23,052 bases of DNA from Patescibacteria group bacterium (GTDB lineage: Bacteria > Patescibacteriota > Patescibacteriia > Patescibacteriales > UBA12465). How positions within the stretch are numbered: position 1 is the first letter of the stretch; each line of letters begins with the position of its first letter. Made by a program: the position numbers and the translations under genes. Of this stretch, positions 1 through 20,469 are shown piece after piece. Under the pieces are notes generated by a model. It saw only the letters and a list, made by a program, of their open reading frames with translations, made no database searches and was not told the DNA's origin. The stretch is from contig JAVEZP010000006.1 in assembly GCA_034002925.1 (NCBI GenBank), forward strand, positions 1-23,052. The letters are read 5' to 3'.

Positions 1-18
1 TGATCTGTACCCCAAAAA

Positions 19-43
19 GTAGACACAAAATGTCTGCTTTTTT
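19..43 (+). terminator. Probable intrinsic terminator of an upstream (off-window) plus-strand gene
   Basis: Stem GTAGACA/TGTCTGC (7 bp, one T.G wobble) with loop CAAAA at 19-37, followed by TTTTTT at 38-43. Confidence 0.4.
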
Positions 44-58
44 GGTGTATTAAAACTA

Positions 59-67
59 TGCTATAAT
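59..67 (+). promoter_or_regulatory. Extended -10 promoter element TGcTATAAT; its distance to the ATG at 74 implies a leaderless transcript
   Basis: TG at 59-60, TATAAT at 62-67. Only 6 nt separate the -10 box from the start codon, so the predicted TSS falls at about the ATG. Confidence 0.4.
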
Positions 68-73
68 ACTCTT

Positions 74-529
74 ATGAATAAGAAAAAAGTTGGGAAAAAT
101 CAAATTGCTATATATCAAGCAAAAAATGGAGCCATTAAACTGCGTGCTGATTTTAATAAAGACACAGTTTGGGCTAGCCTAGATCAAGTTGCAAGTCTTT
201 TTGGTCGCGATAAATCTGTTATTTCTAGGCATATTAAAAATATTTTTAAAGATAAAGAATTGGAAGAGAGTTCAGTTGTTGCAAAAAATGCAACAACTGC
301 TAGAGACGGAAAAAGTTATAAAGTGGTTTTTTATAATTTAGATATGATTTTGTCCGTTGGATATAGAGTAAATTCAAAGATTGCAACTCAATTTAGAATC
401 TGGGCGACGAAAACATTAAAACAACATATTACCAAGGGCTATACTATCAATCCTGCTTTAATAAAAAACAAGTTTTATTTCAAAAAAAATCTTACTCATA
501 GTTTTTTTTTGAATTTTATAAGCAATTAG
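74..529 (+). CDS. RhuM-family (virulence-protein-like) N-terminal DNA-binding domain; truncated relative to full-length family members, probably frameshifted in the T9 run at 502-510
   Basis: The translation (…SLDQVASLFGRDKSVISRHIKNIF…YNLDMILSVGYRVNSKIATQFRIWATKTLKQHITKGY) matches the conserved N-terminal domain of the RhuM family, which is normally about 330 aa; this ORF stops at 151 aa. Frame 1 stays open from 502 to 747. Confidence 0.6.
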   Translation: MNKKKVGKNQIAIYQAKNGAIKLRADFNKDTVWASLDQVASLFGRDKSVISRHIKNIFKDKELEESSVVAKNATTARDGKSYKVVFYNLDMILSVGYRVNSKIATQFRIWATKTLKQHITKGYTINPALIKNKFYFKKNLTHSFFLNFISN

Positions 530-842
530 CTAGAGAGGCGGAAAAAGATTGTTCAGAAATGCAAAAGGTAATTAATCCATTATTACCTGAAAGAAATAAT
601 TTATTTAAAATGTATTTTACAGAAAATGTAATTGGCAAATATTCAATATATATTCCTGAATTAGCTTTAAATAATGTTTTAGAAAAAAAATGTGCCACCG
701 AAGAAAAACGAAAAGCCACTATTTCGATGATAGATAATATAGAATAAGGTTTGTGGTCTGTAAATAGGCTAGTAATAATATATTTGTGTATAAAATCTAT
801 AAACACTAGAACCCCTGGATAGTAATTTTTTATTGATCTATT

Positions 843-870
843 AAAAAAAGGCCATCCGAGAGGATAGCCT
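843..870 (-). terminator. Intrinsic terminator for the LysM membrane protein gene
   Basis: On the minus strand the stem AGGCTATCC/GGATGGCCT is 9 bp, a G.U wobble replaces the plus-strand C/A mismatch, the loop is TCTC, and TTTTTTT follows (plus-strand A-run at 843-849). It lies immediately 3' of the stop at 893. Confidence 0.6.
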
Positions 871-892
871 TATAATTTTTGCACCTTGACGA

Positions 893-1894
893 TTATTTCT
901 TCTTCTTGTCAATTTTAATTGACAGTTTAATATCTCCAGATTTTTCCTGGAAAGATATCTCAATCTGATTGCCAGCTTTATTCATTGATTCAATTATTTT
1001 AGCCAAGTCTATCAAATTGTTTGTAGTTTGAGATGGTGTGGTTTTTAAACTTTGAGCGCCATTTTCGTCAGTTTCTGTGAATACTCTTCCGGCTTCTTCG
1101 TCTTCATCGTATTGAATAAACCAACCATTCGGCAGCTGAAACTCATTGCTGCCAAAACCATTAGCACAAGCACTGCGAAAATGTTGTGTGCGACGAATAC
1201 CATTTTGATTTTCAATTACAGCGGTAGCTACTCTTTCGCCTGATTTTAACCAAACATTGCGATTAACATGATCACCAAATTCCATGTTTGTTTGAAATCC
1301 TTTTTGTTTTAAAGTGTTAGTGAGACTACCTCGGCGAAAATTAATAAGTCTCTCTCCAGGTAAAAGATAGCGGGTCATGATTGCTCTCAAATTTTCTTCT
1401 CGCGGCGTTGTGTCCATATTACTACCAACTGCTTGATAACGATCTGGGTCTTTAGCGCTTCTAAAACTATAACTCTTTAAAAATGCTAGTAGTAACCCAA
1501 GACCAAAAACAATCACAGTTAGGAGAAGCCACCAATTAAATTTTTTATTCGCACTGACTGGTGTGTCGACTGTTTCTTTAATTTTGATTTTAATGGTGTC
1601 AGCTGGAATGGTGAGCAATTGACCTTTTAAGTATTTTTCACTCAAACGCCAGAATGAATCGTGTTTGCCTTCTGATGGCTCGTCTGCTAACCAAACTTCA
1701 ATACCATAACCATTACGAGCTGGAAACAAGACAGTGTCACCGACATAAATTAGATTAGGGTTAACAAATCTGTCTTTGTTTAATTCAAGTGCTTGTTTAT
1801 ACACTTTTATTAATTGATTGTTGTCAATCTGAGACTGAGCCTCAATTAATGTGAAACTAGCCATAATGGCCATCATTAAAAAAATTTTTTTCAT
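893..1894 (-). CDS. Membrane protein with an N-terminal signal/anchor, a LysM-like peptidoglycan-binding motif, one internal TM helix and a C-terminal domain of unknown function
   Basis: The N-terminus is hydrophobic (MKKIFLMMAIMASFTLIEA). A LysM-like segment (YKQALELNKDRFVNPNLIYVGDTVLFP) follows, then a TM helix (WWLLLTVIVFGLGLLLAFL). The C-terminal 190 aa or so match no family I recognise. Confidence 0.55.
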   Translation of the reverse strand: MKKIFLMMAIMASFTLIEAQSQIDNNQLIKVYKQALELNKDRFVNPNLIYVGDTVLFPARNGYGIEVWLADEPSEGKHDSFWRLSEKYLKGQLLTIPADTIKIKIKETVDTPVSANKKFNWWLLLTVIVFGLGLLLAFLKSYSFRSAKDPDRYQAVGSNMDTTPREENLRAIMTRYLLPGERLINFRRGSLTNTLKQKGFQTNMEFGDHVNRNVWLKSGERVATAVIENQNGIRRTQHFRSACANGFGSNEFQLPNGWFIQYDEDEEAGRVFTETDENGAQSLKTTPSQTTNNLIDLAKIIESMNKAGNQIEISFQEKSGDIKLSIKIDKKKK

Positions 1895-3613: not shown

Positions 3614-4252
3614 ATGAAAAAAATTAATAAGATAATTTTAATAATTATCATTGTAGCTTTGTTTCTTTTTTTGGCTTTATGGTTGTTAAATCGTTACATT
3701 TATGAAGCGAAACAAGCTGATGAGCCAATAAATTCTCAAGAGATTAGTTCTTTTGAAGATTGCGTAGCGGCTGGTTATCCAATGATGGAATCCTATCCAC
3801 GACAATGCTCAACGGCTGATGGACTTCATTTTACCGAAATAATTGAAGCAAATAGTGATCCTAGTTTAAATTTTCAAGTACCAGATACGAGCAGTTTCCA
3901 ATATGCTTCTTTTCGAGACTGGCAATTTGATGCTTTGCCATTTGACACCTCAATGGAATTAAATTGTGAAGTAACTGATTTGGCAGCTAGTCAAAATTTA
4001 CGTCGCTTTGAAGCGATGATTAATGATGTCGCATATTGTATAGAAGCTAGTAGTGAGGGCGCAGCTGGTTCGGTCTATACCGAATATAAATATACTCGTA
4101 TTTTAGGAGATTATTTAGTAAATGCTAGATTTACCGTGCAATATCCTAATTGTCAAAATTATAGTGACGCTGAGGCTTTAGCTTGTAGCGAGGAAAGGGA
4201 AAATATGAATATGGATGACATAATTGCTTCTATCTTTCATAATCTAAATTAA
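3614..4252 (+). CDS. Membrane-anchored cysteine-containing (6 Cys) extracytoplasmic protein of unknown function
   Basis: A single N-terminal TM helix (IILIIIIVALFLFLALWLL) is followed by a soluble domain with 6 Cys. It matches no family I recognise. Confidence 0.5.
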   Translation: MKKINKIILIIIIVALFLFLALWLLNRYIYEAKQADEPINSQEISSFEDCVAAGYPMMESYPRQCSTADGLHFTEIIEANSDPSLNFQVPDTSSFQYASFRDWQFDALPFDTSMELNCEVTDLAASQNLRRFEAMINDVAYCIEASSEGAAGSVYTEYKYTRILGDYLVNARFTVQYPNCQNYSDAEALACSEERENMNMDDIIASIFHNLN

Positions 4253-5928: not shown

Positions 5929-7101
5929 ATGACACAAGTACAAAAGTTTTATCTGGCTTCTTTTTTAAAGAACCAGATTTATTTCGTACCCGTAATTGTT
6001 TTATTCTTTCAAGATTTAGGCTTAAATTATAGTCAGATTTTTTGGATTTTTACGATTGGGGCAGCTTTTTCTTTTCTAATAGAAATACCAACTGGCGTGA
6101 TAGCTGATCTTTATGGTAATCGTCGTAGTATTATTTTGTCTAAGTTTTTAATCTTTGTTAGTTTTATTGCTTTTGCTTTTTCTTTTAATTTTTTAACTCT
6201 TTTAATTGCTAATCTGCTCTATGAATTAGGTAAAAGTTTTCGCTCTGGCACAGAAACGGCTTATGTCTATAATTATTTAGCTGAGAACAAAGAGGCACCT
6301 AGTTATACTGTGGTTAAAGCTAATCAAAAGTTTTATGCTCGTCTATCAGAGAGTTTAGGAGCTTTATTGGGTGGTTTTTTAGCTTATTATTTAGGTTTCA
6401 CTTGGGTCTTTTTCATTGCCGCTCTACCAGCTTTTATTAATTTTATTCAAACTTTAAGTTGGGAGAAATTAAAAGAAGCAGATCAGGGTGTTGAAAAAAG
6501 TTGGCAGAATAGTTATCTTTTTATTGTTTCCGCTTTTAAAGTTTTAAAAGAGAATAAGATAGCGCAGAGAATTATTGTGAATATTAGTCTGTTTTCTGCT
6601 TCTTTTGTGGCTCTGGATAAATTTGTCCAGCCTTATATGAAAAATGTGGGCTTGGATTTACAATATTTTGGTGTGGTTTATGCGGTTTTTTTAATTATTA
6701 TTGCTTTTTTAGTAAAAAAAGCAGTGAAACTAGAAGAGCGCTGGGGCGCCGCCAGAATTATGAATTATTCTGGTCTATTAGCTTTTATTCCCCTATTAAT
6801 CTTAGCTAGTGGTTTACAATCAATTTGGGCAGTGGCATTATTCTTCTTTGTTTTAATGATTGCTAATTTCCGCTCTCCGGTGGCCAATACTTTATTTCAT
6901 GAACAAGTAGCTTCGAATCAAAGAGCGACGATGGGTTCAATTTTAGCGCTTTTTACTTCTTTAAATCAATTATGGATCTTGCCAATTATTGGTTATTTAG
7001 CTGATTGGCGATCAATGAGTTTTTCTATTTTGATTCTTGCTTTTTTAATCCTCATGAATGCTTTATTTTTCTGGATCAAGCCTCTAAAAATTGTTAATTA
7101 A
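5929..7101 (+). CDS. Major facilitator superfamily transporter
   Basis: About 12 predicted TM helices. The MFS loop signature …GVIADLYGNRRS… sits between TM2 and TM3. Confidence 0.7.
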   Translation: MTQVQKFYLASFLKNQIYFVPVIVLFFQDLGLNYSQIFWIFTIGAAFSFLIEIPTGVIADLYGNRRSIILSKFLIFVSFIAFAFSFNFLTLLIANLLYELGKSFRSGTETAYVYNYLAENKEAPSYTVVKANQKFYARLSESLGALLGGFLAYYLGFTWVFFIAALPAFINFIQTLSWEKLKEADQGVEKSWQNSYLFIVSAFKVLKENKIAQRIIVNISLFSASFVALDKFVQPYMKNVGLDLQYFGVVYAVFLIIIAFLVKKAVKLEERWGAARIMNYSGLLAFIPLLILASGLQSIWAVALFFFVLMIANFRSPVANTLFHEQVASNQRATMGSILALFTSLNQLWILPIIGYLADWRSMSFSILILAFLILMNALFFWIKPLKIVN

Positions 7102-7116
7102 TTTTTTAATGTTTCT

Positions 7117-8277
7117 ATGTCTATCAATAAATTAATACCAAAGTATATATTTTCACTGTTAATAGTATTGTCATTTTTATTTTCCCCTTCTTTAGTTGGC
7201 GCTCAGAGTGATCAATCGGAAGTGATTATCTTTACTAGCCCTACCTGTCCTCACTGTAATGCGGCTAAAGATTTTTTTAATGACTTGTCTGTTACTAATG
7301 ATTATGATTTTAAATTAGTTGATTATACTTTAGCGAATGAAATTGCTTTAGCAAAACAGTATTACGAAGATTATCAAGTTCCAGCGAGTTATCAAGGTTT
7401 AGTGCCAATTATGTTTATTGGTGATCGTTATTTTGTTGGCTTTAATGATCAGATAGCTTTAGATATTCAAGCACAGCTTAATGTTATCGAGGGTGTGGAT
7501 GCTATGCCAAAGAGTGATAATCATAATCAAAAAGAAAAAATCATCAAATTGCCATTCTTGGGAGAAGTGGATTTATATAGTTTTTCTTTGCCAATTTTAG
7601 CAATTATTATGGGTGCTATTGATGGTTTTAATGTTTGTTCTTTGGGGGCTTTAGTTTTAATTTTAGGTTTAGTTATTGCCTTGCGTTCTCGTCGTCGCAT
7701 TTTGTTATTAGGTTCAACTTTTTTGTTAACTACTGGTCTAGTTTATGGTTTAATGATTTTTCTCTGGCATCAAATATTTTCTGTTTTAGCTCCTTATGTC
7801 CGTAGTTTAGAGTTGGTGGTGGGCATATTGTCTATCTTTGGTGGTATTTATTTGCTCCGAGAATTTTATCAAGCCTGGAAGCGAGGGCCAATTTGTAGTA
7901 GTAATAATATTCTCTCGAGATTAATGCCGAAGGTAGAGCAAATTTTTCAAAATAAAACTAATTGGTTTTTGTTAATGGCTACGGTAATTCTTTTTTCAGG
8001 GGCAGTGACAATTATTGAATTTCCTTGTTCAGCAGTTTTACCAGTTCTATTTACTGGCATTTTAGTCGAAAGTGGTGTTAGTCAATCGACAGCTATAGCC
8101 TACATAACTCTCTTTTTATTGTTTTATCTCTTAGACGAGTTGATCATTTTTCTAATTGCCGTCTTTACTATGAAAATTAAAATAGTGTCTCCACGTTTTA
8201 TTATTTTCTTTAATTTATTAGCGGCCTTAATTTTCTTAGCTCTAGGCGCTTTCTATCTTTTAGGTTTAAGTCTTTAA
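7117..8277 (+). CDS. Signal-peptide thioredoxin-fold (CPHC) domain fused to a CcdA/DsbD-like polytopic membrane domain carrying two intramembrane cysteines
   Basis: Domain order is signal peptide, a Trx/Grx-like domain (…IIFTSPTCPHCNAAKDFF…), then 6-8 TM helices. Cys lies in two pseudo-symmetric motifs (…DGFNVCSLGALVL… and …IIEFPCSAVLPVL…), as in CcdA/DsbD_2 electron transporters. Confidence 0.55.
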   Translation: MSINKLIPKYIFSLLIVLSFLFSPSLVGAQSDQSEVIIFTSPTCPHCNAAKDFFNDLSVTNDYDFKLVDYTLANEIALAKQYYEDYQVPASYQGLVPIMFIGDRYFVGFNDQIALDIQAQLNVIEGVDAMPKSDNHNQKEKIIKLPFLGEVDLYSFSLPILAIIMGAIDGFNVCSLGALVLILGLVIALRSRRRILLLGSTFLLTTGLVYGLMIFLWHQIFSVLAPYVRSLELVVGILSIFGGIYLLREFYQAWKRGPICSSNNILSRLMPKVEQIFQNKTNWFLLMATVILFSGAVTIIEFPCSAVLPVLFTGILVESGVSQSTAIAYITLFLLFYLLDELIIFLIAVFTMKIKIVSPRFIIFFNLLAALIFLALGAFYLLGLSL

Positions 8278-8281
8278 AATC

Positions 8282-9286
8282 ATGACTATTAAAAAATTGT
8301 TCAGCAGCTTAATAATTATTCTGGCTCTATGGTTATTGTTTCCCAGTTATAGTCAGGCTTCAGATATCTCCTATCGTTTACGTGGCTCTTTTTTGCTATC
8401 GGTAGAAGAGGAGGGAAAAGTATATTATGTTGATACAGATAATGGTTTGAGGCATGAATTAACAAATTTCAATCTTGCTAAGTTAGAGCAATTAGCTTTA
8501 GGTATTAAAACAAGTGATTTAGCTAAAATTCCTGTCGCGGTAGACGCTCGTTTTCTTCGTTATGATAGTGATGGTGATGGTCTTGATGATCGCTTAGAGA
8601 GAGCCTTGGCTTTAAATCCAGCTTTAAGTGATACAGATAATGATTCCTATAGCGATGCTGTTGAGTTAAGATATCATTTCAACCCCTTAGGGGAAGGGAG
8701 GGCTAATTTGGATTTAGATTTTAGCGCGAGTTTAAGGGGTATGATTTTAATGCAAGTGGAGGCTGAAGGGCAGTTATGGTACGTTAATGTTGAAGATAAT
8801 TTACGCTATTATTTAGGTGATAGTGAAGATCTAAGACGTTTAATTTTGTATTTAGCGAAAGGCATTACGAAAAATAATTTAGATGAAATTGTAGATGCTC
8901 GTGTGATTAAGGATGATAATAAAAAAAGTATTCGGGTTGATGTTGGTCCTAGTCAGAGAGTGTATTATTATTTAGATGGTGTAGAATTGGGTTCCTTCCC
9001 TGTGTCTTCGGGGTCTAAAGATATGCCCACTCCTCAGGGTAGTTTTGAGATTATTAATAAACATCCTAAAGCTTGGTCTTCTTATGGTCTCTGGATGCCA
9101 TATTGGCTCGGCTTGGGCACGGGTCGTTTTGGTTTTCATGAACTGCCTATTTGGCCCAGTGGTTATCGTGAAGGAGAGGATCATTTAGGCAGGGCAGTGT
9201 CTCATGGTTGTATCAGGCTAGGCATTGGTCCAGCTCAATTTTTATATAATTGGGCAGAGATAGGAACGCCGGTAGAAATTTATTAA
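8282..9286 (+). CDS. L,D-transpeptidase (YkuD domain) with N-terminal thrombospondin-type-3-like Ca-binding repeats
   Basis: A signal peptide, DxDxDG repeats (YDSDGDGLDD and SDTDNDSYSD), and a C-terminal YkuD catalytic domain ending in the His/Cys signature …FGFHE…AVSHGCIRL…. Confidence 0.8.
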   Translation: MTIKKLFSSLIIILALWLLFPSYSQASDISYRLRGSFLLSVEEEGKVYYVDTDNGLRHELTNFNLAKLEQLALGIKTSDLAKIPVAVDARFLRYDSDGDGLDDRLERALALNPALSDTDNDSYSDAVELRYHFNPLGEGRANLDLDFSASLRGMILMQVEAEGQLWYVNVEDNLRYYLGDSEDLRRLILYLAKGITKNNLDEIVDARVIKDDNKKSIRVDVGPSQRVYYYLDGVELGSFPVSSGSKDMPTPQGSFEIINKHPKAWSSYGLWMPYWLGLGTGRFGFHELPIWPSGYREGEDHLGRAVSHGCIRLGIGPAQFLYNWAEIGTPVEIY

Positions 9287-9296
9287 TTAATTATTT

Positions 9297-10337
9297 ATGA
9301 CTAAAAATAAAAACCAAAATAAATTATCTCGAGCTTTTCTATATATTCTAGTAATTAGCGCCAGTGTGGCGGTTTTATATCTTTTAAGGCCATTTTTAAA
9401 AGAAATTATTATGGCAGCGATGTTAGCTTCAGTTTCTTTTTGGCCTTATCAAAAATTAAGTAAAATTTTAGCAGGTAGAAAAATTTTAGCAGCTTTAATG
9501 ATGTTATTGCTTTTATTTATTGTTATTATTGGTCCTTTAAGTCACTTTTTAATTTATTTAGCCAAACAAGCTCCTAATTTATATACTCAGACTAGTCATT
9601 TCATCGCTGAGGCCGATATTATTGAAAACAATTTATTATCCTTATTTCACATCAGCCCTAGCGCTGAAGATAGTTTAAAGTCTTTACTGGCTAATTTTCT
9701 TAATCAAGGAGGTGCGTGGCTAATTAATAGTACTTCTTTGTTTTTGCAAAATGTGAGTTCTTTCTTTTTATCTCTTTTTATTTTATTGTTGGCATATTTT
9801 TATTTTTTAGTACATGGGAAAGTGATTGTGAAAAAACTTTTCTATTATTCACCCTTGCCTCAAAATTATAATTTAGAACTTAGTCGTAGCTTTAGTACTA
9901 TTTCTCGCACTGCCTTATTATCAGTGGGAATCAGTGCTATCATTCAAGGTTTGTTAAGCGCCTTGGGCTTATTAATTTTAGGATGGCCCTTTTTATTGGT
10001 GTTTGCGGTCTCAGCTCTGTTAGCCGTTATTCCTTATATGCTGACTTTATTTTATTTGCCCATTGCTCTTTTTTTATTAGCCTCAGGACAAATTTGGCAA
10101 GCTCTATTAATTATTATTTGGAATATGTTAATTGTAGTGAATATTGACGAGCTAATTCGAGCTTATATTGCTAAGGGAGGCACGAAGGTTAATATGGCTT
10201 TTATGTTGTTTGCTATTTTAGGGGGTATTGCTTTATTTGGCTTACCAGGTGTTTTTATTGGTCCACTTATTACCGCTTTAACGCTCACAATTTTAAATAT
10301 TTATGCTCAAGAATTTAGTGAAAAAATTAGTTATTAA
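9297..10337 (+). CDS. AI-2E family transporter (UPF0118/PerM-like)
   Basis: An 8-TM protein with the family-typical N-terminal …LYLLRPFLKEIIMA… region and overall architecture. Confidence 0.7.
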   Translation: MTKNKNQNKLSRAFLYILVISASVAVLYLLRPFLKEIIMAAMLASVSFWPYQKLSKILAGRKILAALMMLLLLFIVIIGPLSHFLIYLAKQAPNLYTQTSHFIAEADIIENNLLSLFHISPSAEDSLKSLLANFLNQGGAWLINSTSLFLQNVSSFFLSLFILLLAYFYFLVHGKVIVKKLFYYSPLPQNYNLELSRSFSTISRTALLSVGISAIIQGLLSALGLLILGWPFLLVFAVSALLAVIPYMLTLFYLPIALFLLASGQIWQALLIIIWNMLIVVNIDELIRAYIAKGGTKVNMAFMLFAILGGIALFGLPGVFIGPLITALTLTILNIYAQEFSEKISY

Positions 10338-10357
10338 TTGAATTGTTTAGATAAGAT

Positions 10358-10383
10358 AAAACCGCCTATGGGCGGTTTTGTTT
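10358..10383 (+). terminator. Intrinsic terminator closing the 5929..10337 operon
   Basis: AAAACCGCC-tatg-GGCGGTTTTGTTT. Confidence 0.7.
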
Positions 10384-10475
10384 AGAATTAAATAATTTTA
10401 TGCTATTATATAACTACTAATTAATTAAGTATTTAGCTGGTAAATTTTTTAATTTACTCAGACTAATTCACATAT

Positions 10476-10883
10476 ATGTCTAAGAAAAAAAATAATTATG
10501 GACTGTGGTCATTGCTAGCGGTCTTTGTACTTATTTTAGGTGCTATCTATTTTTCTAATCGCTATTCTCAGTCTACTACTGGAGAAAATGATGTAGCTTT
10601 AAGTTCTTTTGCTCAATGTTTAGAGGATAAGGGGGCGCGTTTCTATGGAGCTTTTTGGTGTTCTCATTGCCAAGACCAAAAAGAAATGTTTGGCGGAGCC
10701 GCTAAAGATTTACCCTATGTCGAGTGTTCAACTCGGGATGGCAAGGGACAATTACCAGAATGTCAGAAAAACAATATCTCCGGCTATCCTACTTGGGAAT
10801 TTGCTGACGGTAGTCGCATGTCCGGTAGTTTGCCATTAGGTATATTGGCCGAGAAGAGTGGCTGTGCTTTACCTGCAGTTTAA
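10476..10883 (+). CDS. Membrane-anchored extracytoplasmic thioredoxin-like protein of the type that partners VKOR (CxxC = CSHC)
   Basis: A single N-terminal TM helix, then …FYGAFWCSHCQDQKEMFGGAAKDLPYVEC…. This closely resembles the Trx-like domain found fused to bacterial VKOR. Confidence 0.55.
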   Translation: MSKKKNNYGLWSLLAVFVLILGAIYFSNRYSQSTTGENDVALSSFAQCLEDKGARFYGAFWCSHCQDQKEMFGGAAKDLPYVECSTRDGKGQLPECQKNNISGYPTWEFADGSRMSGSLPLGILAEKSGCALPAV

Positions 10884-14261: not shown

Positions 14262-15251
14262 TTGTTATTTTTTGTTTTAGCACTGATTATTTTAATGCTG
14301 ATACAAAAAATTGTCTTAGCACGTCTGCAAAAATTTTCTCAACACACTAAAACAGCAATAGATGATGTAATGATTAATATTTTAGCTAAAATCAAGCCAC
14401 CTTTTTATTTAATCATTGCTTTTTATCTGGCGGTTCAATCTTTACATTTAAGTGTAAGTTTTAAGTATTGGTTAAACTTCTTGTTGGCCGCTATTTTAAT
14501 TTATGAAGGAATTCGAGCATTGGAAAAAATCATTGCCTTTTTTATTACCCAGTCTTTAGAGAAGAATAATAGCAGTGAACAAGCGGTGGCATCGTTTAAA
14601 ACTTTAAATATTTTTATTCGGATTATTTTATGGAGCATAGGTCTTTTACTATTACTCTCTAATACTGGAATTAATATTACTTCCTTAATTGCTGGTTTAG
14701 GTATTGGTGGTATTGCCATTGCCTTAGCTCTACAAAATGTTTTAGGTGATATTTTCTCTAGTTTTTCTATTTTAATAGATAAGCCTTTTCAAGTGGGCGA
14801 TTTTATTAAAATTGATACTGACATGGGTACGGTTGAGAAAATTGGTATTAAAACTACCAGATTACGTACCTTAGATGGTCAAATCTTAGTAGTGGCAAAT
14901 CAGGAATTAACTACAGCGAGAGTGGAGAATTTTCGTCAAGCGCAAAAAAGGAGAGCTTTATTTACTTTAGGGCTCATATATCAAAGTAGTCGGAAACAAT
15001 TAGAAAAAGTGCCGGAAATTATTAAGAGTATTGTGGCTTCATATGAATTAGCTGAATTCGATCGTTGCCATTTTAAAAGTTATGGTGATTTTAGTTTAAA
15101 TTTTGAAGTTTCTTTTTATGTTAAAACAGATAATTATCAAGTTTTTCTAGATGTTTTGGAAAAGATTAATTTAGATATTTTTAGCCATTTTCAAAAAGAA
15201 GGCATAGAATTCGCTTATCCGACTCAACTGCAATATAATAAAAATATTTAA
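14262..15251 (+). CDS. Small-conductance mechanosensitive channel (MscS family)
   Basis: Three N-terminal TM helices, then the conserved MscS pore/beta-domain region …IAGLGIGGIAIALALQNVLGDIFSSFSILIDKPFQVGDFIKI…GTVEKIGIKTTRLRTLDGQILVVANQEL…. Confidence 0.85.
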   Translation: MLFFVLALIILMLIQKIVLARLQKFSQHTKTAIDDVMINILAKIKPPFYLIIAFYLAVQSLHLSVSFKYWLNFLLAAILIYEGIRALEKIIAFFITQSLEKNNSSEQAVASFKTLNIFIRIILWSIGLLLLLSNTGINITSLIAGLGIGGIAIALALQNVLGDIFSSFSILIDKPFQVGDFIKIDTDMGTVEKIGIKTTRLRTLDGQILVVANQELTTARVENFRQAQKRRALFTLGLIYQSSRKQLEKVPEIIKSIVASYELAEFDRCHFKSYGDFSLNFEVSFYVKTDNYQVFLDVLEKINLDIFSHFQKEGIEFAYPTQLQYNKNI

Positions 15252-15270
15252 TTAGCTTTTAGTAGATAAA

Positions 15271-15296
15271 AAAAAGAGCTTACTGAGCTCTTTTTT
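15271..15296. terminator. Bidirectional intrinsic terminator shared by convergent MscS (+) and mscL (-); the mscL stop codon lies inside the stem
   Basis: AAAAAAAAGAGCT-tactg-AGCTCTTTTTT. Confidence 0.7.
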
Positions 15297-15729
15297 GTTG
15301 TTGTAATATATCTTTGATTTCTTGGAGCAGTTTGGCTTCTTGACTAATTTTTTCTTCTTTAATTTCTTTTGGTTTTTCTACTTCTTTTTGAAAATGTTTT
15401 TTGACGCTTATTAAGGCCTTAATCATTAAAAACACTGAAAAAGCAATAATGAGGAAGTCAATAATATTTTGCAGAAAAAGACCAGCGTTTAAATTTAAAG
15501 CAGTTTGTATAATTTCGCCATCAGCGCTAATTTTTTCTGGTCTTAATAAAATTTTCCAGGCTTTAAAGTCACTACCACCACTGAGTAGTCCAATAATAGG
15601 CATAATAATATCAGCTACCAGCGAGGAAACAATTTTGCCAAAAGCGCCACCCACGATAACAGCGGTGGCTAAATCTATGACATTGCCTTTAATGGCAAAA
15701 GCTTTAAATTCTTGAATTAATTTTTTCAT
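15280..15729 (-). CDS. mscL: Large-conductance mechanosensitive channel MscL
   Basis: Nearly collinear with E. coli MscL: …[43 protein letters not shown]…, two TM helices and a charged C-terminal helix. Confidence 0.9.
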
Positions 15730-18711: not shown

Positions 18712-19287
18712 TTATCTTAGATAATGTAAAATATTAATTGCAGTTTTTGCGAGTCTGTCTTTATTTTTTTCTAAATTTCTGGCATTAGCAAAGAGAAAGG
18801 ATTTAGTTTTCATGCCGCAGAAAGCTAGTATATGTTTTTTAAGAGCGTTGATAGCAGCATTAGCGGTGAAAAAACGAGTATAAATAGCGGGACCTGCGCT
18901 ACTAGCAAAAATGGCGGCTTTTTTGCCTTTTAATAAACCAACGGGGACACCTAAAACATATTTAAAGCCAAAACCACCAGTAATAACTCTATCAAGAAAA
19001 CCTTTTAAAATAGCAGGCATATTTTGCCACCAAATAGGGTAGATAAAAATTAGGCGATCAGCAGTTGTAATTTTTGTTTGAAAAATTAAATTTTCTTCAC
19101 TTATTTCTTTATTGCCAGCGCTGTATAATTCTTCTTTCTTCAGTAGAGGGTCATAATTTAAGGCATAGAGATCAATTAGTTCGTAATCTTTTTGTTCATT
19201 CTTTAATCTTTTCTCAATCTCGGATAAAAGATAGCCGCTATGTCCTTCGTGACTAGGATGAGCAAAGATAATTAAATATTTAGACAT
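18712..19287 (-). CDS. Flavodoxin-like-fold NAD(P)H dehydrogenase (quinone) family protein (NQO1/MdaB/KefF-like)
   Basis: …LIIFAHPSHEGHSGYLL… and …LIFIYPIWWQNMPAILKGFLDRV… are typical of the Flavodoxin_2 family of quinone reductases. Confidence 0.7.
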   Translation of the reverse strand: MSKYLIIFAHPSHEGHSGYLLSEIEKRLKNEQKDYELIDLYALNYDPLLKKEELYSAGNKEISEENLIFQTKITTADRLIFIYPIWWQNMPAILKGFLDRVITGGFGFKYVLGVPVGLLKGKKAAIFASSAGPAIYTRFFTANAAINALKKHILAFCGMKTKSFLFANARNLEKNKDRLAKTAINILHYLR

Positions 19288-19297
19288 AAAAATTGAA

Positions 19298-19325
19298 AAA
19301 TTCTCATCATCATGTCTGAGAATTT
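19298..19325. promoter_or_regulatory. Inverted repeat AAATTCTCA-(10 nt)-TGAGAATTT between the HxlR gene and the quinone reductase gene; candidate HxlR operator or attenuator hairpin
   Basis: The 9-bp arms are perfect. The repeat sits 10 bp upstream of the reductase start (19287) and 25 bp downstream of the HxlR stop (19350). Confidence 0.35.
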
Positions 19326-19349
19326 TGTAATAGTGATTTTTTTATTTTT

Positions 19350-19697
19350 TTATTTATTTTTCTTAGTAGCTTTTCTATTTTTAGCATGGGTTTGTCCCCA
19401 GTCTGCTAGTTTACTTAAAACCGTTTTCAAGCTTTTTCCGTAGGGAGTAATCCAATATTCTACTTTTGGTGGTACTTGAGGATAGACTTCACGGTGGATA
19501 ATACCATCTTGTTCTAAGGCGCGTAATTCGGTGGCTAACATTTTTTGAGAAATGCCTTGTAGTTGTCTCTGTAATTCATTAAAACGCACCTTGCCTTCAA
19601 ATAAATGCCAAAGAATTAGAGGTTTCCATTTACCTCCAATGACTTTTAAAGTGGCCGCGACAGCGGCGTGACAATGGTATTTATTTTGTTTAGACAT
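19350..19697 (-). CDS. HxlR-family (DUF24) winged-helix transcriptional regulator
   Basis: …[82 protein letters not shown]… matches the HxlR signature throughout. Confidence 0.85.
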
Positions 19698-19800: not shown

Positions 19801-20469
19801 ATGAAAAAATTACTTTTTCTTTTTGTTTTGGGTTTTGGCTTAATCGCCTTTTCTGCTTGTACCAGCAATCTTGCTAATCAAGAAGCTCCTATAGGAGAAG
19901 ACTCTAACAATTCTATTAATACTGCTATTAATAATGAAGTAGCGCCTGTTTTAATTGACGGCAGTTATGTGGTGGATGTTAATGCTTCACAAATGACTTG
20001 GCATGCTTCTCGGGTAATTGCTAGTGATCACACTGGTTTAATCCAAATTAAGAATGGTAATTTAGATGTTAGTGAAGGGAATTTAATGGGTGCTAATTTC
20101 ATTATTGATATGAATAGCATCTCTAGTGATGAAGGTTTAGACGCTTTAGTTGGTCATCTGAAAAGCGAAGATTTTTTTGATGTCGCTAATTATCCAGAAG
20201 CATTTTTAGAAATTAATAATGTTACTTATCTTGATGGCGCTTATCAAATAACCGCTGATTTAGGTATTAAAGGCACTGTCTCCAGTATTACTTTCCCCGC
20301 TCAAATCACTACTGAGGCTGACAGATTATTAGCCACCGCTGCTTTTAGTATTGATCGTACTGTTTGGGATATTCGCTATGGTTCTGGTAAATTCTTTGAA
20401 GATTTAGGAGATAAGACAATTAAAGATGAAATTGATTTTACTATTCAGTTAGAAGCTCAGCGTCAATAA
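19801..20469 (+). CDS. YceI-like domain lipoprotein (polyisoprenoid/quinone-binding family)
   Basis: Lipobox …LIAFSAC…, then the YceI pattern …YVVDVNASQMTWHASRVIASDHTGLIQIKNGNL…FIIDMNSISSDEGLDALVGHLKSEDFFDVANYPEAF…FSIDRTVWDI…. Confidence 0.7.
   Translation: MKKLLFLFVLGFGLIAFSACTSNLANQEAPIGEDSNNSINTAINNEVAPVLIDGSYVVDVNASQMTWHASRVIASDHTGLIQIKNGNLDVSEGNLMGANFIIDMNSISSDEGLDALVGHLKSEDFFDVANYPEAFLEINNVTYLDGAYQITADLGIKGTVSSITFPAQITTEADRLLATAAFSIDRTVWDIRYGSGKFFEDLGDKTIKDEIDFTIQLEAQRQ

What the first reader, a model, noticed from the sequence alone, without database searches (positions are those of the whole stretch)
7117..10883. Compact extracytoplasmic thiol-redox module genetically coupled to an L,D-transpeptidase
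The gene at 7117..8277 encodes a signal peptide plus a thioredoxin-fold domain with a DsbA-like CPHC active site, fused N-terminally to a CcdA/DsbD-like membrane domain. That membrane domain carries one Cys in each of two pseudo-symmetric motifs (NVCSLGALVL and FPCSAVLPVL). It ends 4 bp before a YkuD-type L,D-transpeptidase gene, whose catalysis depends on a free active-site Cys (SHGCIRL). A second, membrane-anchored Trx-like protein (CSHC) follows the operon terminator. Its closest sequence relatives I can recall are the Trx domains fused to bacterial VKOR. In E. coli, DsbD-to-DsbG electron flow is known to rescue the sulfenylated catalytic Cys of L,D-transpeptidases. This locus looks like a single-operon, fused version of that protection pathway. 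The alternative is an oxidative DsbA-like system built on a CcdA-like scaffold rather than DsbB or VKOR. A Trx domain fused N-terminally to a CcdA-like domain is an unusual arrangement. No DsbB or VKOR gene is present in the window.
Basis: partly seen in the sequence, partly recalled or inferred. Interest (0 to 1): 0.7.

Follow-up and report, generated by a model that had tools for sequence, protein, structure and literature searches.

The report
Glutaredoxin-fused, highly divergent CcdA-like thiol relay
A candidate-phyla-radiation (Patescibacteria) bacterium encodes an exported glutaredoxin-like domain fused to a very distant relative of the CcdA/DsbD membrane electron carrier; this protein family is widespread and apparently unstudied, and its position next to a cell-wall L,D-transpeptidase is local gene order in close relatives, not a family-wide link.

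Summary
The described sequence features are all present. Gene 7117-8277 encodes a signal peptide, a glutaredoxin-fold domain with CPHC, and a six-helix membrane domain.

The family has 1575 clusters at 50% identity, mostly from CPR genomes.

The L,D-transpeptidase neighbour occurs only in close relatives (at least 64% identity; 2 of 80 species-level loci). Elsewhere the neighbours include thioredoxin plus AhpD-like genes, ZIP transporters, DUF134 and ArsF/ArsG-like pairs.

A reductive direction is favoured but unproven. The small CSHC protein does resemble the VKOR-fused Trx domain (E 2e-19).

Verdict: a new variant of a known kind, of moderate interest.

The parts
5929..7101 (+). MFS transporter gene, first gene of the co-directional array. 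It ends 15 bp before the fusion gene and encodes no cysteines.
   Evidence: Pfam MFS_1, E 3.4e-27. Cys count. Syntenic in L001, L082-L084.
7117..8277 (+). Fusion gene (386 aa): signal peptide or anchor (aa 1-30), Grx-fold CxxC domain (aa 33-124), low-confidence linker, then a six-helix CcdA-like membrane domain (aa 150-386).
7246..7257 (+). CPHC active-site motif (C44, C47) of the exported Grx-like domain.
   Evidence: C44 is present in 65 of 68 members and C47 in 66 of 68. The motif is CPHC in 42 of 66 members. The conserved cis-Pro loop GLVP (P97) is present in 67 of 68.
7636..7638 (+). C174 codon, in the break of TM1 (motif DGFN-x-C).
   Evidence: Present in 68 of 68 members; D169 and N172 are also invariant. 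Aligns with the TM1 Cys of CcdA.
7894..7896 (+). C260 codon (GPxCSSNN), in the K/R-rich cytoplasmic TM3-TM4 loop. This stretch is a family-specific insertion relative to CcdA.
   Evidence: Present in 66 of 68 members. Falls in a gap of the CcdA profile in the hhalign alignment.
8026..8028 (+). C304 codon, in the break of TM4 (motif E-F-P-C-S...P).
   Evidence: Present in 68 of 68 members; E301 in 67 of 68, P309 in 68 of 68. 'FPC' aligns with the 'TPC' of CcdA TM4.
8282..9286 (+). Exported YkuD-type L,D-transpeptidase with TSP3-like Ca-binding repeats. Its only cysteine is the catalytic C310 (codon 9209-9211).
   Evidence: Pfam YkuD, E 2.3e-19. PDB L,D-transpeptidase hits. Cys count.
9297..10337 (+). 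AI-2E/PerM family transporter, last gene of the array. It encodes no cysteines.
   Evidence: Pfam PF01594, E 4.4e-35.
10358..10379 (.). G+C-rich hairpin flanked by A and T runs, resembling a bidirectional intrinsic terminator.
10476..10883 (+). Membrane-anchored Trx-like protein (135 aa) with WCSHC and six cysteines in all, homologous to the Trx-like domain fused to cyanobacterial VKOR.
   Evidence: phmmer E 1.7e-19 to 3kp8 and 3kp9. Cys count. Also present after AI-2E in L082.

Best explanation
Gene 7117-8277 encodes a single-polypeptide transmembrane thiol-disulfide relay. An N-terminal signal peptide or anchor puts a glutaredoxin-fold CxxC (CPHC) domain outside the cell. This domain is tethered to a six-helix membrane domain that is a very remote, so far unmodelled relative of the CcdA/DsbD electron transporters.

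Proposed mechanism, by analogy with CcdA/DsbD (inferred): the membrane-embedded pair C174 (TM1) and C304 (TM4) alternates between the two faces of the membrane. It accepts electrons from a cytoplasmic dithiol protein such as thioredoxin, possibly through the extra cytoplasmic C260. It then passes them by disulfide exchange to the fused CPHC domain, which reduces oxidised cysteines (disulfides or sulfenic acids) of extracytoplasmic proteins.

In this genome and its close relatives, the single-cysteine L,D-transpeptidase encoded 4 bp downstream is a plausible client. It is not the family's general partner.

Shown here: domain anatomy, topology, cysteine conservation, remote similarity to CcdA, family size and distribution, and gene contexts.
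Inferred: the relay itself, its direction and its clients.
For: (1) Anatomy. The fusion has five cysteines and all five are family-conserved. The Grx fold is confirmed.

(2) Topology. Inside loops carry 14.3 K+R against 1.3 for outside loops, and 65 of 65 members have an N-terminal hydrophobic segment. AF2 gives six TM helices, with TM1 and TM4 broken next to C174 and C304.

(3) Remote homology. hhalign of the family profile against a 16-sequence CcdA/DsbD profile gives 82-90% probability (P 1e-5 to 2e-7) over 192-211 collinear columns, with both catalytic cysteines in register. Each half of the domain aligns to the matching half of CcdA. Reversed and unrelated-TM controls give at most 3.8%.

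(5) Gene order. Canonical CcdA genes are preceded by TlpA, ResA or DsbA-family genes, the same order as the domains in the fusion. One locus, L091, has the two parts as separate overlapping genes.

(6) Reductive direction.
- Cytoplasmic thioredoxin plus an AhpD-like CxxC gene lie directly upstream, with small gaps or overlaps between successive genes (4-19 bp from Trx to CMD; -26 to 108 bp from CMD to the fusion), in L028, L031, L032 and L033. The AhpD-like gene is at position -1 in 7 loci. Desulfoferrodoxin and rubrerythrin-like genes are neighbours in 4 loci each.
- The nearest solved relatives of the soluble domain are reductases: Grx, MJ0307 Trx (which also has CPHC) and NrdH.
- Close relatives L082 and L084 carry a DsbB about 2.3 kb upstream of the fusion, and the window has a VKOR-type Trx-like protein. 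An oxidative pathway is therefore already accounted for.
- The Ldt has a single, catalytic cysteine. DsbD is known to feed sulfenic-acid reduction in E. coli (abstract of PMC3322552).
Against: - No curated model recognises the membrane domain: Pfam DsbD and DsbD_2 match 0 of 68 members, NCBIfam finds none, and a PDB sequence-profile search finds none.
- Foldseek against the PDB finds nothing significant (best E 0.94).
- The hhalign probability depends on which CcdA sequences are used (26-58% with subsets). It is far below the 98% seen between DsbD_2 and CcdA.
- The family lacks the canonical PCxxP motifs. Instead it has invariant membrane-embedded D169, N172, E301 and a D/E pair in TM5, features that also fit cation binding.
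- CPHC is the classical DsbA (oxidase) motif.
- Gene contexts are heterogeneous, and CPR genomes have long co-directional arrays, so adjacency is weak evidence.
- No experiment exists for any member.
Confidence: 0.55

Rival explanations
1. Oxidative pathway. The CPHC domain is a DsbA-like disulfide donor. The CcdA-like domain re-oxidises it, standing in for DsbB or VKOR without quinone, by passing electrons inward through C174/C304 and C260 to a cytoplasmic acceptor.
For: - CPHC is the dominant motif, in 42 of 66 members, and is the E. coli DsbA motif (established knowledge).
- The extra cytoplasmic Cys is absent from CcdA.
- No DsbB or VKOR is present in this window.
- In S. gordonii, CcdA2 and SdbB are reported redox partners of the oxidase SdbA (PMC7034828). 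This is a precedent for a CcdA scaffold serving an oxidative pathway.
- Exported proteins nearby carry even numbers of cysteines: ORF 3614-4252 and the 135-aa Trx-like protein have six each.
Against: - MJ0307 thioredoxin also carries CPHC, so the motif does not decide the question.
- Close relatives have a DsbB beside the same syntenic block. The window also has a separate VKOR-type DsbA-like protein.
- Neighbours where present are cytoplasmic Trx, AhpD-like and oxidative-stress genes.
- No cytoplasmic oxidant is evident.
- The soluble domain lacks the DsbA helical insert.
Confidence: 0.15
2. Thiophilic metal or metalloid handling. The membrane domain is a LysE-superfamily-type cation transporter whose Cys, Asp, Glu and Asn residues bind a soft metal. 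The exported CxxC domain and the cytoplasmic C260 act as hand-off sites, in a MerP/MerT-like logic.
For: - D169, N172, E301, S305 and the TM5 D/E pair flank the two cysteines and are invariant or nearly so.
- A ZIP transporter gene lies within 4 genes of the fusion in 12 loci and is the next gene downstream in 7. It sits within 3 bp of the fusion's end, or overlaps it by 4 bp, in L032, L044, L054 and L065.
- ArsP_1 with ArsF-like and ArsG-like genes lies directly upstream in L003, L007 and L016. DUF134, MinD-Fer4 and DUF5320 clusters are also nearby.
- One member weakly hits SfLAP, a family of the LysE clan.
Against: - The fused Grx-fold CxxC domain and the register of both cysteines with the CcdA catalytic cysteines point to disulfide exchange.
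- Canonical CcdA genes also sit beside cation transporters on plasmids (L087, L088), so metal-gene adjacency does not discriminate.
- There is no His-rich or Met-rich motif.
- The contexts are heterogeneous.
Confidence: 0.12
3. One reading: a dedicated single-operon module whose main function is to rescue the sulfenylated catalytic cysteine of the downstream L,D-transpeptidase, as a fused DsbD-DsbG equivalent.
For: - The gap is 4 nt, and the order fusion-YkuD is conserved in L001, L002, L082, L083 and L084.
- The Ldt has one cysteine, the catalytic one.
- DsbD-dependent sulfenic-acid reduction is established in E. coli (abstract of PMC3322552; the Ldt substrates are from my own knowledge of Depuydt et al. 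2009).
Against: - YkuD is a neighbour in only 2 of 80 species-level loci. All positive cases are close relatives (at least 64% identity) sharing one syntenic block that also holds unrelated MFS and AI-2E genes.
- The family is far more widespread than this linkage.
Confidence: 0.1

Closest known systems
CcdA (Pfam DsbD, PF02683; Thermus thermophilus CcdA, PDB 5vkv)
   Same: - Six TM helices with the N-terminus outside.
- One essential Cys in broken TM1 and one in broken TM4.
- Collinear profile-profile alignment with both cysteines in register.
- Usually encoded just after an exported Trx-fold partner.
   Different: - No HMM-level match.
- The motifs are DGFN-x-C and E-x-P-C-S rather than PCxxP.
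- Invariant membrane acidic residues are present.
- A third conserved Cys sits in an enlarged cytoplasmic loop.
- The partner is fused N-terminally.
- CPR hosts generally lack c-type cytochromes (my own knowledge), so the classical CcdA job is unlikely.
DsbD / ScsB / DipZ-type fusions
   Same: A CcdA-like core is covalently joined to extracytoplasmic redox domains, forming a one-protein electron hub that supplies reductant to several envelope pathways (abstract of PMC3322552).
   Different: E. coli DsbD has eight TM helices, an Ig-like N-terminal domain and a C-terminal Trx-like domain (L081, plus established knowledge). Here there is one N-terminal Grx-like domain and six TM helices. No sequence-level match was detected.
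ArsF-like CxxC lipoprotein plus ArsG-like DsbD_2 transporter pairs (NF040494, NF040495)
   Same: This is the split version of the same architecture: an exported CxxC protein followed by a six-TM, two-Cys protein. The pair is encoded immediately upstream of the fusion in L003, L007 and L016.
   Different: ArsG-like proteins are clear DsbD_2 members (E 2e-19) and align to CcdA at 98% probability. The fusion family aligns to them at only about 5% with the four sequences available.
VKOR-Trx fusion (Synechococcus, PDB 3kp9) and DsbB/DsbA
   Same: A membrane redox domain is coupled to a Cxx(H)C Trx-fold domain outside the cell. The window's separate 135-aa protein is a true homologue of the VKOR-fused Trx domain.
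   Different: VKOR and DsbB are four-helix, quinone-dependent oxidases whose cysteine pairs lie in external loops (established knowledge). The fusion's membrane domain has single cysteines inside TM1 and TM4 and shows no similarity to them.
E. coli DsbD to DsbG/DsbC protection of single-Cys L,D-transpeptidases
   Same: The idea is the same: reductant is carried across the membrane to keep an exposed catalytic Cys of a YkuD enzyme reduced. The Ldt here has a single Cys.
   Different: No DsbG or DsbC homologue is present, and the organism is presumably monoderm. The linkage is limited to one shallow clade.
MJ0307-type Trx/Grx-like proteins (PDB 1fo5), NrdH and small clostridial Grx (7c10)
   Same: These are the closest solved relatives of the soluble domain. 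MJ0307 shares the TSP-x-CPHC-x-x-AK signature.
   Different: They are small cytoplasmic proteins. Here the domain is exported and tethered to a membrane domain.

Membership tests
CcdA/DsbD family (Pfam PF02683) and DsbD_2 (PF13386) | Match to the curated family HMM at or above the gathering score. | tested here: not met
   No hit at E<=0.1 for the window protein. None of 68 diverse members hits either model at E<=1. NCBIfam finds none. The control ArsG-like neighbour hits DsbD_2 at 2e-19.
CcdA/DsbD family (Pfam PF02683) and DsbD_2 (PF13386) | Six TM helices with the N-terminus outside; TM1 and TM4 broken. | tested here: met
   AF2 models have pLDDT about 80 and pTM 0.74 for the membrane domain. 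Positive-inside count is 14.3 against 1.3.
CcdA/DsbD family (Pfam PF02683) and DsbD_2 (PF13386) | One invariant redox cysteine in TM1 and one in TM4. | tested here: met
   C174 and C304 are present in 68 of 68 members. They align with the CcdA cysteines.
CcdA/DsbD family (Pfam PF02683) and DsbD_2 (PF13386) | Conserved Pro-Cys-x-x-Pro type motifs around both cysteines. | tested here: inconclusive
   TM4 has F-P-C-S-A-x-L-P, with Pro before the Cys and at +5. TM1 has N-V-C in the window and N-P-C in the wider family, with no Pro at +3.
CcdA/DsbD family (Pfam PF02683) and DsbD_2 (PF13386) | Detectable homology by profile-profile comparison. | tested here: inconclusive
   The probability is 82-90% with the 16-sequence CcdA profile and 26-58% with subsets. 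Controls give at most 3.8%, and the known pair DsbD_2/CcdA gives 98%.
CcdA/DsbD family (Pfam PF02683) and DsbD_2 (PF13386) | Fold similarity to solved CcdA. | tested here: inconclusive
CcdA/DsbD family (Pfam PF02683) and DsbD_2 (PF13386) | Thioredoxin-dependent electron transfer across the membrane. | not testable with these tools
   Needs biochemistry or genetics.
Glutaredoxin / thioredoxin fold | Beta-alpha-beta-alpha-beta-beta-alpha fold with CxxC at the N-terminus of helix 1 and a cis-Pro loop. | tested here: met
DsbA family | Trx fold with an inserted helical domain. | tested here: not met
   The domain is about 90 aa with no insert (secondary structure). DSBA Pfam hits appear only in 10 of 68 members, with best E 0.006.
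YkuD L,D-transpeptidase (gene 8282-9286) | YkuD catalytic domain with the His ... S-x-G-C-(I/V)-R motif. | tested here: met
   Pfam PF03734 scores 70.8 bits. The motifs HELPIW...SHGCIRL are present. PDB L,D-transpeptidase hits support it.
VKOR-associated Trx-like domain (gene 10476-10883) | Sequence homology to the Trx-like domain of bacterial VKOR fusions. | tested here: met
   E 1.7e-19 to 3kp8 and 5e-19 to 3kp9, with WC-x-HCQDQKE conserved.
VKOR-associated Trx-like domain (gene 10476-10883) | Fused or adjacent VKOR membrane domain. | tested here: not met
   No VKOR or DsbB Pfam hit in any window ORF of at least 100 aa. No tblastn hit to a relative's DsbB.

The most novel reading that the evidence does not exclude
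The family is a three-cysteine, cofactor-free transmembrane disulfide relay. In this reading it gives quinone-poor, ultra-small CPR bacteria and DPANN archaea their extracytoplasmic disulfide oxidase (a DsbB/VKOR substitute) or a bidirectional redox shuttle. The conserved cytoplasmic C260 and the membrane acidic residues would provide a mechanism not seen in CcdA/DsbD.
Probability: 0.15. Interest if true: 0.75.

Novelty: new variant of a known kind. Interest (0 to 1): 0.45.

Why it matters
CPR/Patescibacteria and DPANN organisms have tiny genomes and depend on cell-surface proteins for their episymbiotic lifestyle. How they manage cysteine redox chemistry outside the cell is essentially unknown.

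This protein belongs to a large family that no Pfam or NCBIfam model describes: 1575 clusters at 50% identity. It appears to be their version of the CcdA/DsbD electron conduit, already fused to its partner domain and carrying an extra conserved cytoplasmic cysteine.

Characterising it would:
- define a new branch of the DsbD/LysE superfamily;
- supply a missing family model for annotating the membrane domain, which current Pfam and NCBIfam models do not recognise;
- test whether a CcdA scaffold can run with a three-cysteine relay, or in the oxidative direction.

The specific Ldt-protection idea remains testable, but only for one shallow clade.

Tried and rejected
1. Pfam and NCBIfam scans of the window protein and of 68 diverse members found only Grx/Trx-type domains. 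There was one weak SfLAP hit.

2. A PDB sequence-profile search found nothing for the membrane domain.

4. The afdb50 fold library was unavailable.

5. Foldseek against the PDB was uninformative.

6. hhalign against single E. coli DsbD-beta gave 0.1%. Against a low-diversity Thermaceae CcdA alignment it gave 3-5%, rising to 32-57% once E. coli DsbD-beta was added. The signal only became useful after plasmid CcdA sequences were also added.

7. hhalign of the N-half against the C-half gave only a weak TM3/TM6 match (E 0.007). Pseudo-symmetry is therefore not demonstrable at sequence level.

8. hhalign against the four ArsG-like DsbD_2 sequences gave about 5%.

9. I looked for YkuD by phmmer and by the catalytic-motif regex in 80 loci. 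Only L001 and L002 were positive.

10. I looked for CcdA and DsbB in the loci flanks and the window and found none.

11. I checked whether window ORF 3614-4252, which sits where relatives have DsbB, is a DsbB. It is not: it is a secreted six-Cys protein.

12. Literature searches for this family in CPR found nothing specific.

13. To fish the 5vkv sequence out of the PDB I used a B. subtilis CcdA sequence recalled from memory. It served only as bait and is not in any alignment.

Full report
**1. What is in the sequence**

The window carries a co-directional array:
- MFS transporter, 5929-7101;
- 15 bp gap, then the gene in question, 7117-8277 (386 aa);
- 4 bp gap, then a YkuD L,D-transpeptidase, 8282-9286;
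- 10 bp gap, then an AI-2E/PerM transporter, 9297-10337.

A G+C-rich hairpin at 10358-10379 follows. After it comes a 135-aa Trx-like gene, 10476-10883.

The fusion protein has exactly five cysteines. The Ldt has one, the catalytic C310. The MFS and AI-2E proteins have none.

**2. The soluble domain**

Residues 33-124 form a classical glutaredoxin/thioredoxin fold:
- Pfam Glutaredoxin scores 25.8 bits against a cut-off of 22.9.
- A PDB profile search hits Grx, MJ0307 thioredoxin (which shares TSP-x-CPHC-x-x-AK) and NrdH-like proteins.

There is no DsbA-type helical insert, so the domain is "DsbA-like" only in the CPHC motif. Across 68 diverse relatives the motif is CPHC in 42 of 66. The cis-Pro is conserved in 67 of 68.

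**3. Topology**

All 65 members with a complete N-terminus have a hydrophobic segment before the CxxC. The predicted cytoplasmic loops carry 14.3 K+R on average, against 1.3 for the external loops. AlphaFold models (pLDDT about 80; pTM 0.74 for the membrane domain) give six TM helices, with TM1 and TM4 broken beside C174 and C304.

The Grx domain is therefore outside. C174 and C304 lie within the membrane.

**4. Is the membrane domain CcdA/DsbD-like?**

Evidence against, or uninformative:
- Curated models say no. There is no Pfam DsbD or DsbD_2 hit for the window protein at E<=0.1, nor for any of 68 members at E<=1. There is no NCBIfam hit and no PDB sequence-profile hit.
- Foldseek against the PDB is empty (best E 0.94).

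The informative test was profile-profile comparison. I assembled CcdA/DsbD sequences from three sources:
- Thermus and Meiothermus homologues of 5vkv;
- six annotated plasmid CcdA genes;
- the beta domain of E. coli DsbD.

Against this 16-sequence profile, the family profile aligns over 192-211 collinear columns. The probability is 82-90% and P is 1e-5 to 2e-7. C174 lands on the TM1 "SPC" cysteine and C304 ("FPC") on the TM4 "TPC" cysteine. Each half of the domain aligns to the matching half of CcdA.

Controls and calibration:
- Reversed profiles and unrelated membrane families score at most 3.8%.
- Less diverse CcdA profiles give only 3-58%.
- The known relatives DsbD_2 and CcdA reach 98% by the same procedure.

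My reading: a genuine but very remote CcdA/DsbD relative that forms its own unmodelled family. Membership of the Pfam families as defined is not met. "Works like CcdA" is the best-supported mechanism.

The family differs from CcdA in three respects:
- invariant D169, N172 and E301, and a D/E pair in TM5;
- no PCxxP motifs;
- C260 in an inserted cytoplasmic loop segment.

**5. The family**

A search of 1.84 billion cluster representatives with the membrane-only profile found 1575 clusters at E<=1e-3 and 255 at E<=1e-30. Most of the 150 best have the same N-terminal extension of about 140 aa; a minority are shorter, TM-only or truncated, such as P0127, P0156 and P0157.

A pattern scan of species-representative genomes found 173 relatives. 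Record titles are mostly Patescibacteria and CPR lineages: Paceibacterota, Moraniibacteriota, Falkowbacteria, Nealsonbacteria, Roizmanbacteria and others. Two DPANN archaeal MAGs also appear. More distant members occur in Bacilli MAGs.

Sources name these proteins only "glutaredoxin domain-containing" or "hypothetical". I found no paper describing the family.

One metagenomic contig, L091, has the two parts as separate genes overlapping by 4 bp. This is either a true split or a frameshift.

**6. Linkage to the L,D-transpeptidase**

Of 80 loci from different species, only L001 and L002 (65-66% identity) have a YkuD gene within about 6 kb. This holds both by phmmer and by the catalytic-motif pattern.

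Three further metagenomic relatives (64-72% identity) show the same whole block, MFS-fusion-YkuD-AI-2E. The linkage is therefore inherited synteny of one shallow clade, not recurrent association. The refutation criterion that the finding itself named ("no recurrent linkage with L,D-transpeptidases") is met for this part.

The Ldt remains a reasonable local client, because its only cysteine is the catalytic one. DsbD-fed sulfenic-acid reduction is established in E. coli (abstract of PMC3322552; the identity of the Ldt substrates is from my own knowledge).

**7. What else sits next to family members**

Contexts are heterogeneous:
- DUF134 in 18 loci.
- A ZIP transporter within 4 genes of the fusion in 12 loci. 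It is the next gene downstream in 7, and within 3 bp of the fusion's end (or overlapping it by 4 bp) in L032, L044, L054 and L065.
- MinD-type 4Fe-4S ATPases in 9 loci.
- Family-4 UDG in 9 loci.
- An AhpD/CMD-like CxxC protein at position -1 in 7 loci. In L028, L031, L032 and L033 it is preceded by a cytoplasmic thioredoxin, with small gaps or overlaps between successive genes (4-19 bp from Trx to CMD; -26 to 108 bp from CMD to the fusion).
- Desulfoferrodoxin and rubrerythrin-like genes in 4 loci each.

In L003, L007 and L016 the fusion directly follows ArsP_1, an ArsF-like CxxC lipoprotein and an ArsG-like DsbD_2 protein. The last two form a split system of the same architecture.

Canonical plasmid CcdA genes are preceded by TlpA, ResA or DsbA-family genes. 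The domain order of the fusion mirrors that common gene order.

**8. Direction of electron flow**

For a reductive role:
- Trx and AhpD-like genes lie upstream, and oxidative-stress genes are neighbours.
- The soluble domain's nearest solved relatives are reductases.
- Close relatives L082 and L084 carry a BdbC-like DsbB about 2.3 kb upstream of the same block.
- The window has a separate VKOR-type, DsbA-like Trx protein. The oxidative arm therefore seems to be covered by other genes.

For an oxidative role:
- The CPHC motif.
- The extra cytoplasmic cysteine.
- The S. gordonii precedent, where CcdA2 and SdbB partner the oxidase SdbA (PMC7034828).

A metal-handling role cannot be excluded, given the invariant acidic and amide residues beside both cysteines and the ZIP and Ars-type neighbours. 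However, canonical CcdA genes also sit beside cation transporters.

My estimates, for the reported readings with the remainder left open:
- transmembrane thiol relay, reductive direction favoured: 0.55
- oxidative relay: 0.15
- metal handling: 0.12
- dedicated Ldt rescue as the main function: 0.10

**9. Verdict**

This is a new variant of a known kind. It is a large, unmodelled, CPR-centred clade of CcdA-like proteins with a fused N-terminal Grx domain and a third conserved cysteine. Interest is moderate (0.45).

Noticed in passing
window 3614-4252 (+): A 212-aa ORF with an N-terminal hydrophobic segment, six cysteines and no Pfam hit. It lies just upstream of the Phage_holin_4_2 gene, in the position where relatives L082 and L084 have a BdbC-like DsbB gene. 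It is a possible disulfide-bonded exported protein.
   Followed up: partly
L082:2735-3268 and L084:2750-3283: Close relatives of this locus carry a DsbB (PF02600, motif CNLCWWQR) about 2.3 kb upstream of the fusion gene. The window has no DsbB (tblastn negative). DsbB in CPR organisms, which are thought to lack quinone synthesis, is itself curious.
   Followed up: partly
L003:3541-5908, L007 and L016 (genes -3 to -1 of the fusion); an ArsG-like gene also at L037:2389-3117: A conserved ArsP_1 permease, an ArsF-like CxxC lipoprotein (NF040494) and an ArsG-like DsbD_2 protein (NF040495) lie directly upstream of the fusion. This second, split Trx-like plus six-TM two-Cys system sits beside the fused one.
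   Followed up: partly
L091:938-2082: The Grx-like part (143 aa) and the membrane part (238 aa) are separate ORFs in different frames, overlapping by 4 bp. This is either a natural split of the fusion or a frameshift in the assembly.
   Followed up: partly
L047 (Aenigmatarchaeota MAG) and L072 (Nanoarchaeota MAG), match at 6001-7140 and 6001-7053: Full-length family members (38-39% identity) occur in DPANN archaeal MAGs. This suggests transfer between CPR bacteria and DPANN archaea, or mis-binning.
   Followed up: no
L001-L080 record titles: Many loci that clearly resemble CPR genomes are titled 'uncultured Gammaproteobacteria', 'Bdellovibrionales' or 'Candidatus Saccharibacteria' (TPA MAG sets). 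These organism labels look unreliable.
   Followed up: no
window 8282-9286 (Ldt aa 30-150): The N-terminal half of the L,D-transpeptidase holds two similar segments of about 30 aa (RLRGSFLLSVEEEGKVYYVDTDNGLRHEL and SLRGMILMQVEAEGQLWYVNVEDNLRYYL). They flank TSP3-like Asp-rich calcium-binding repeats. There is no Pfam model for the repeat.
   Followed up: no
window 18712-19697 (-): A flavodoxin-like-fold NAD(P)H oxidoreductase (PF02525) lies next to an HxlR-type regulator. This resembles a typical redox or electrophile-responsive pair. An exported YceI-like protein lies across from it at 19801-20469.
   Followed up: no
window 14262-15729: MscS-type (14262-15251, +) and MscL (15280-15729, -) mechanosensitive channel genes are convergent and adjacent.
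   Followed up: no
window 1-1000: This is the lowest G+C stretch of the window (0.286). It includes a truncated RhuM-family ORF (74-529) and may be a mobile-element remnant.
   Followed up: no
L085 (Aquibium plasmid), L087, L088: Canonical plasmid CcdA genes sit in compact clusters: TlpA-CcdA-DsbB-DsbA in L085, or next to CDF/cation transporters and lspA in L087 and L088. Co-location of reductive and oxidative arms, and of metal transporters, is therefore normal for CcdA.
   Followed up: partly
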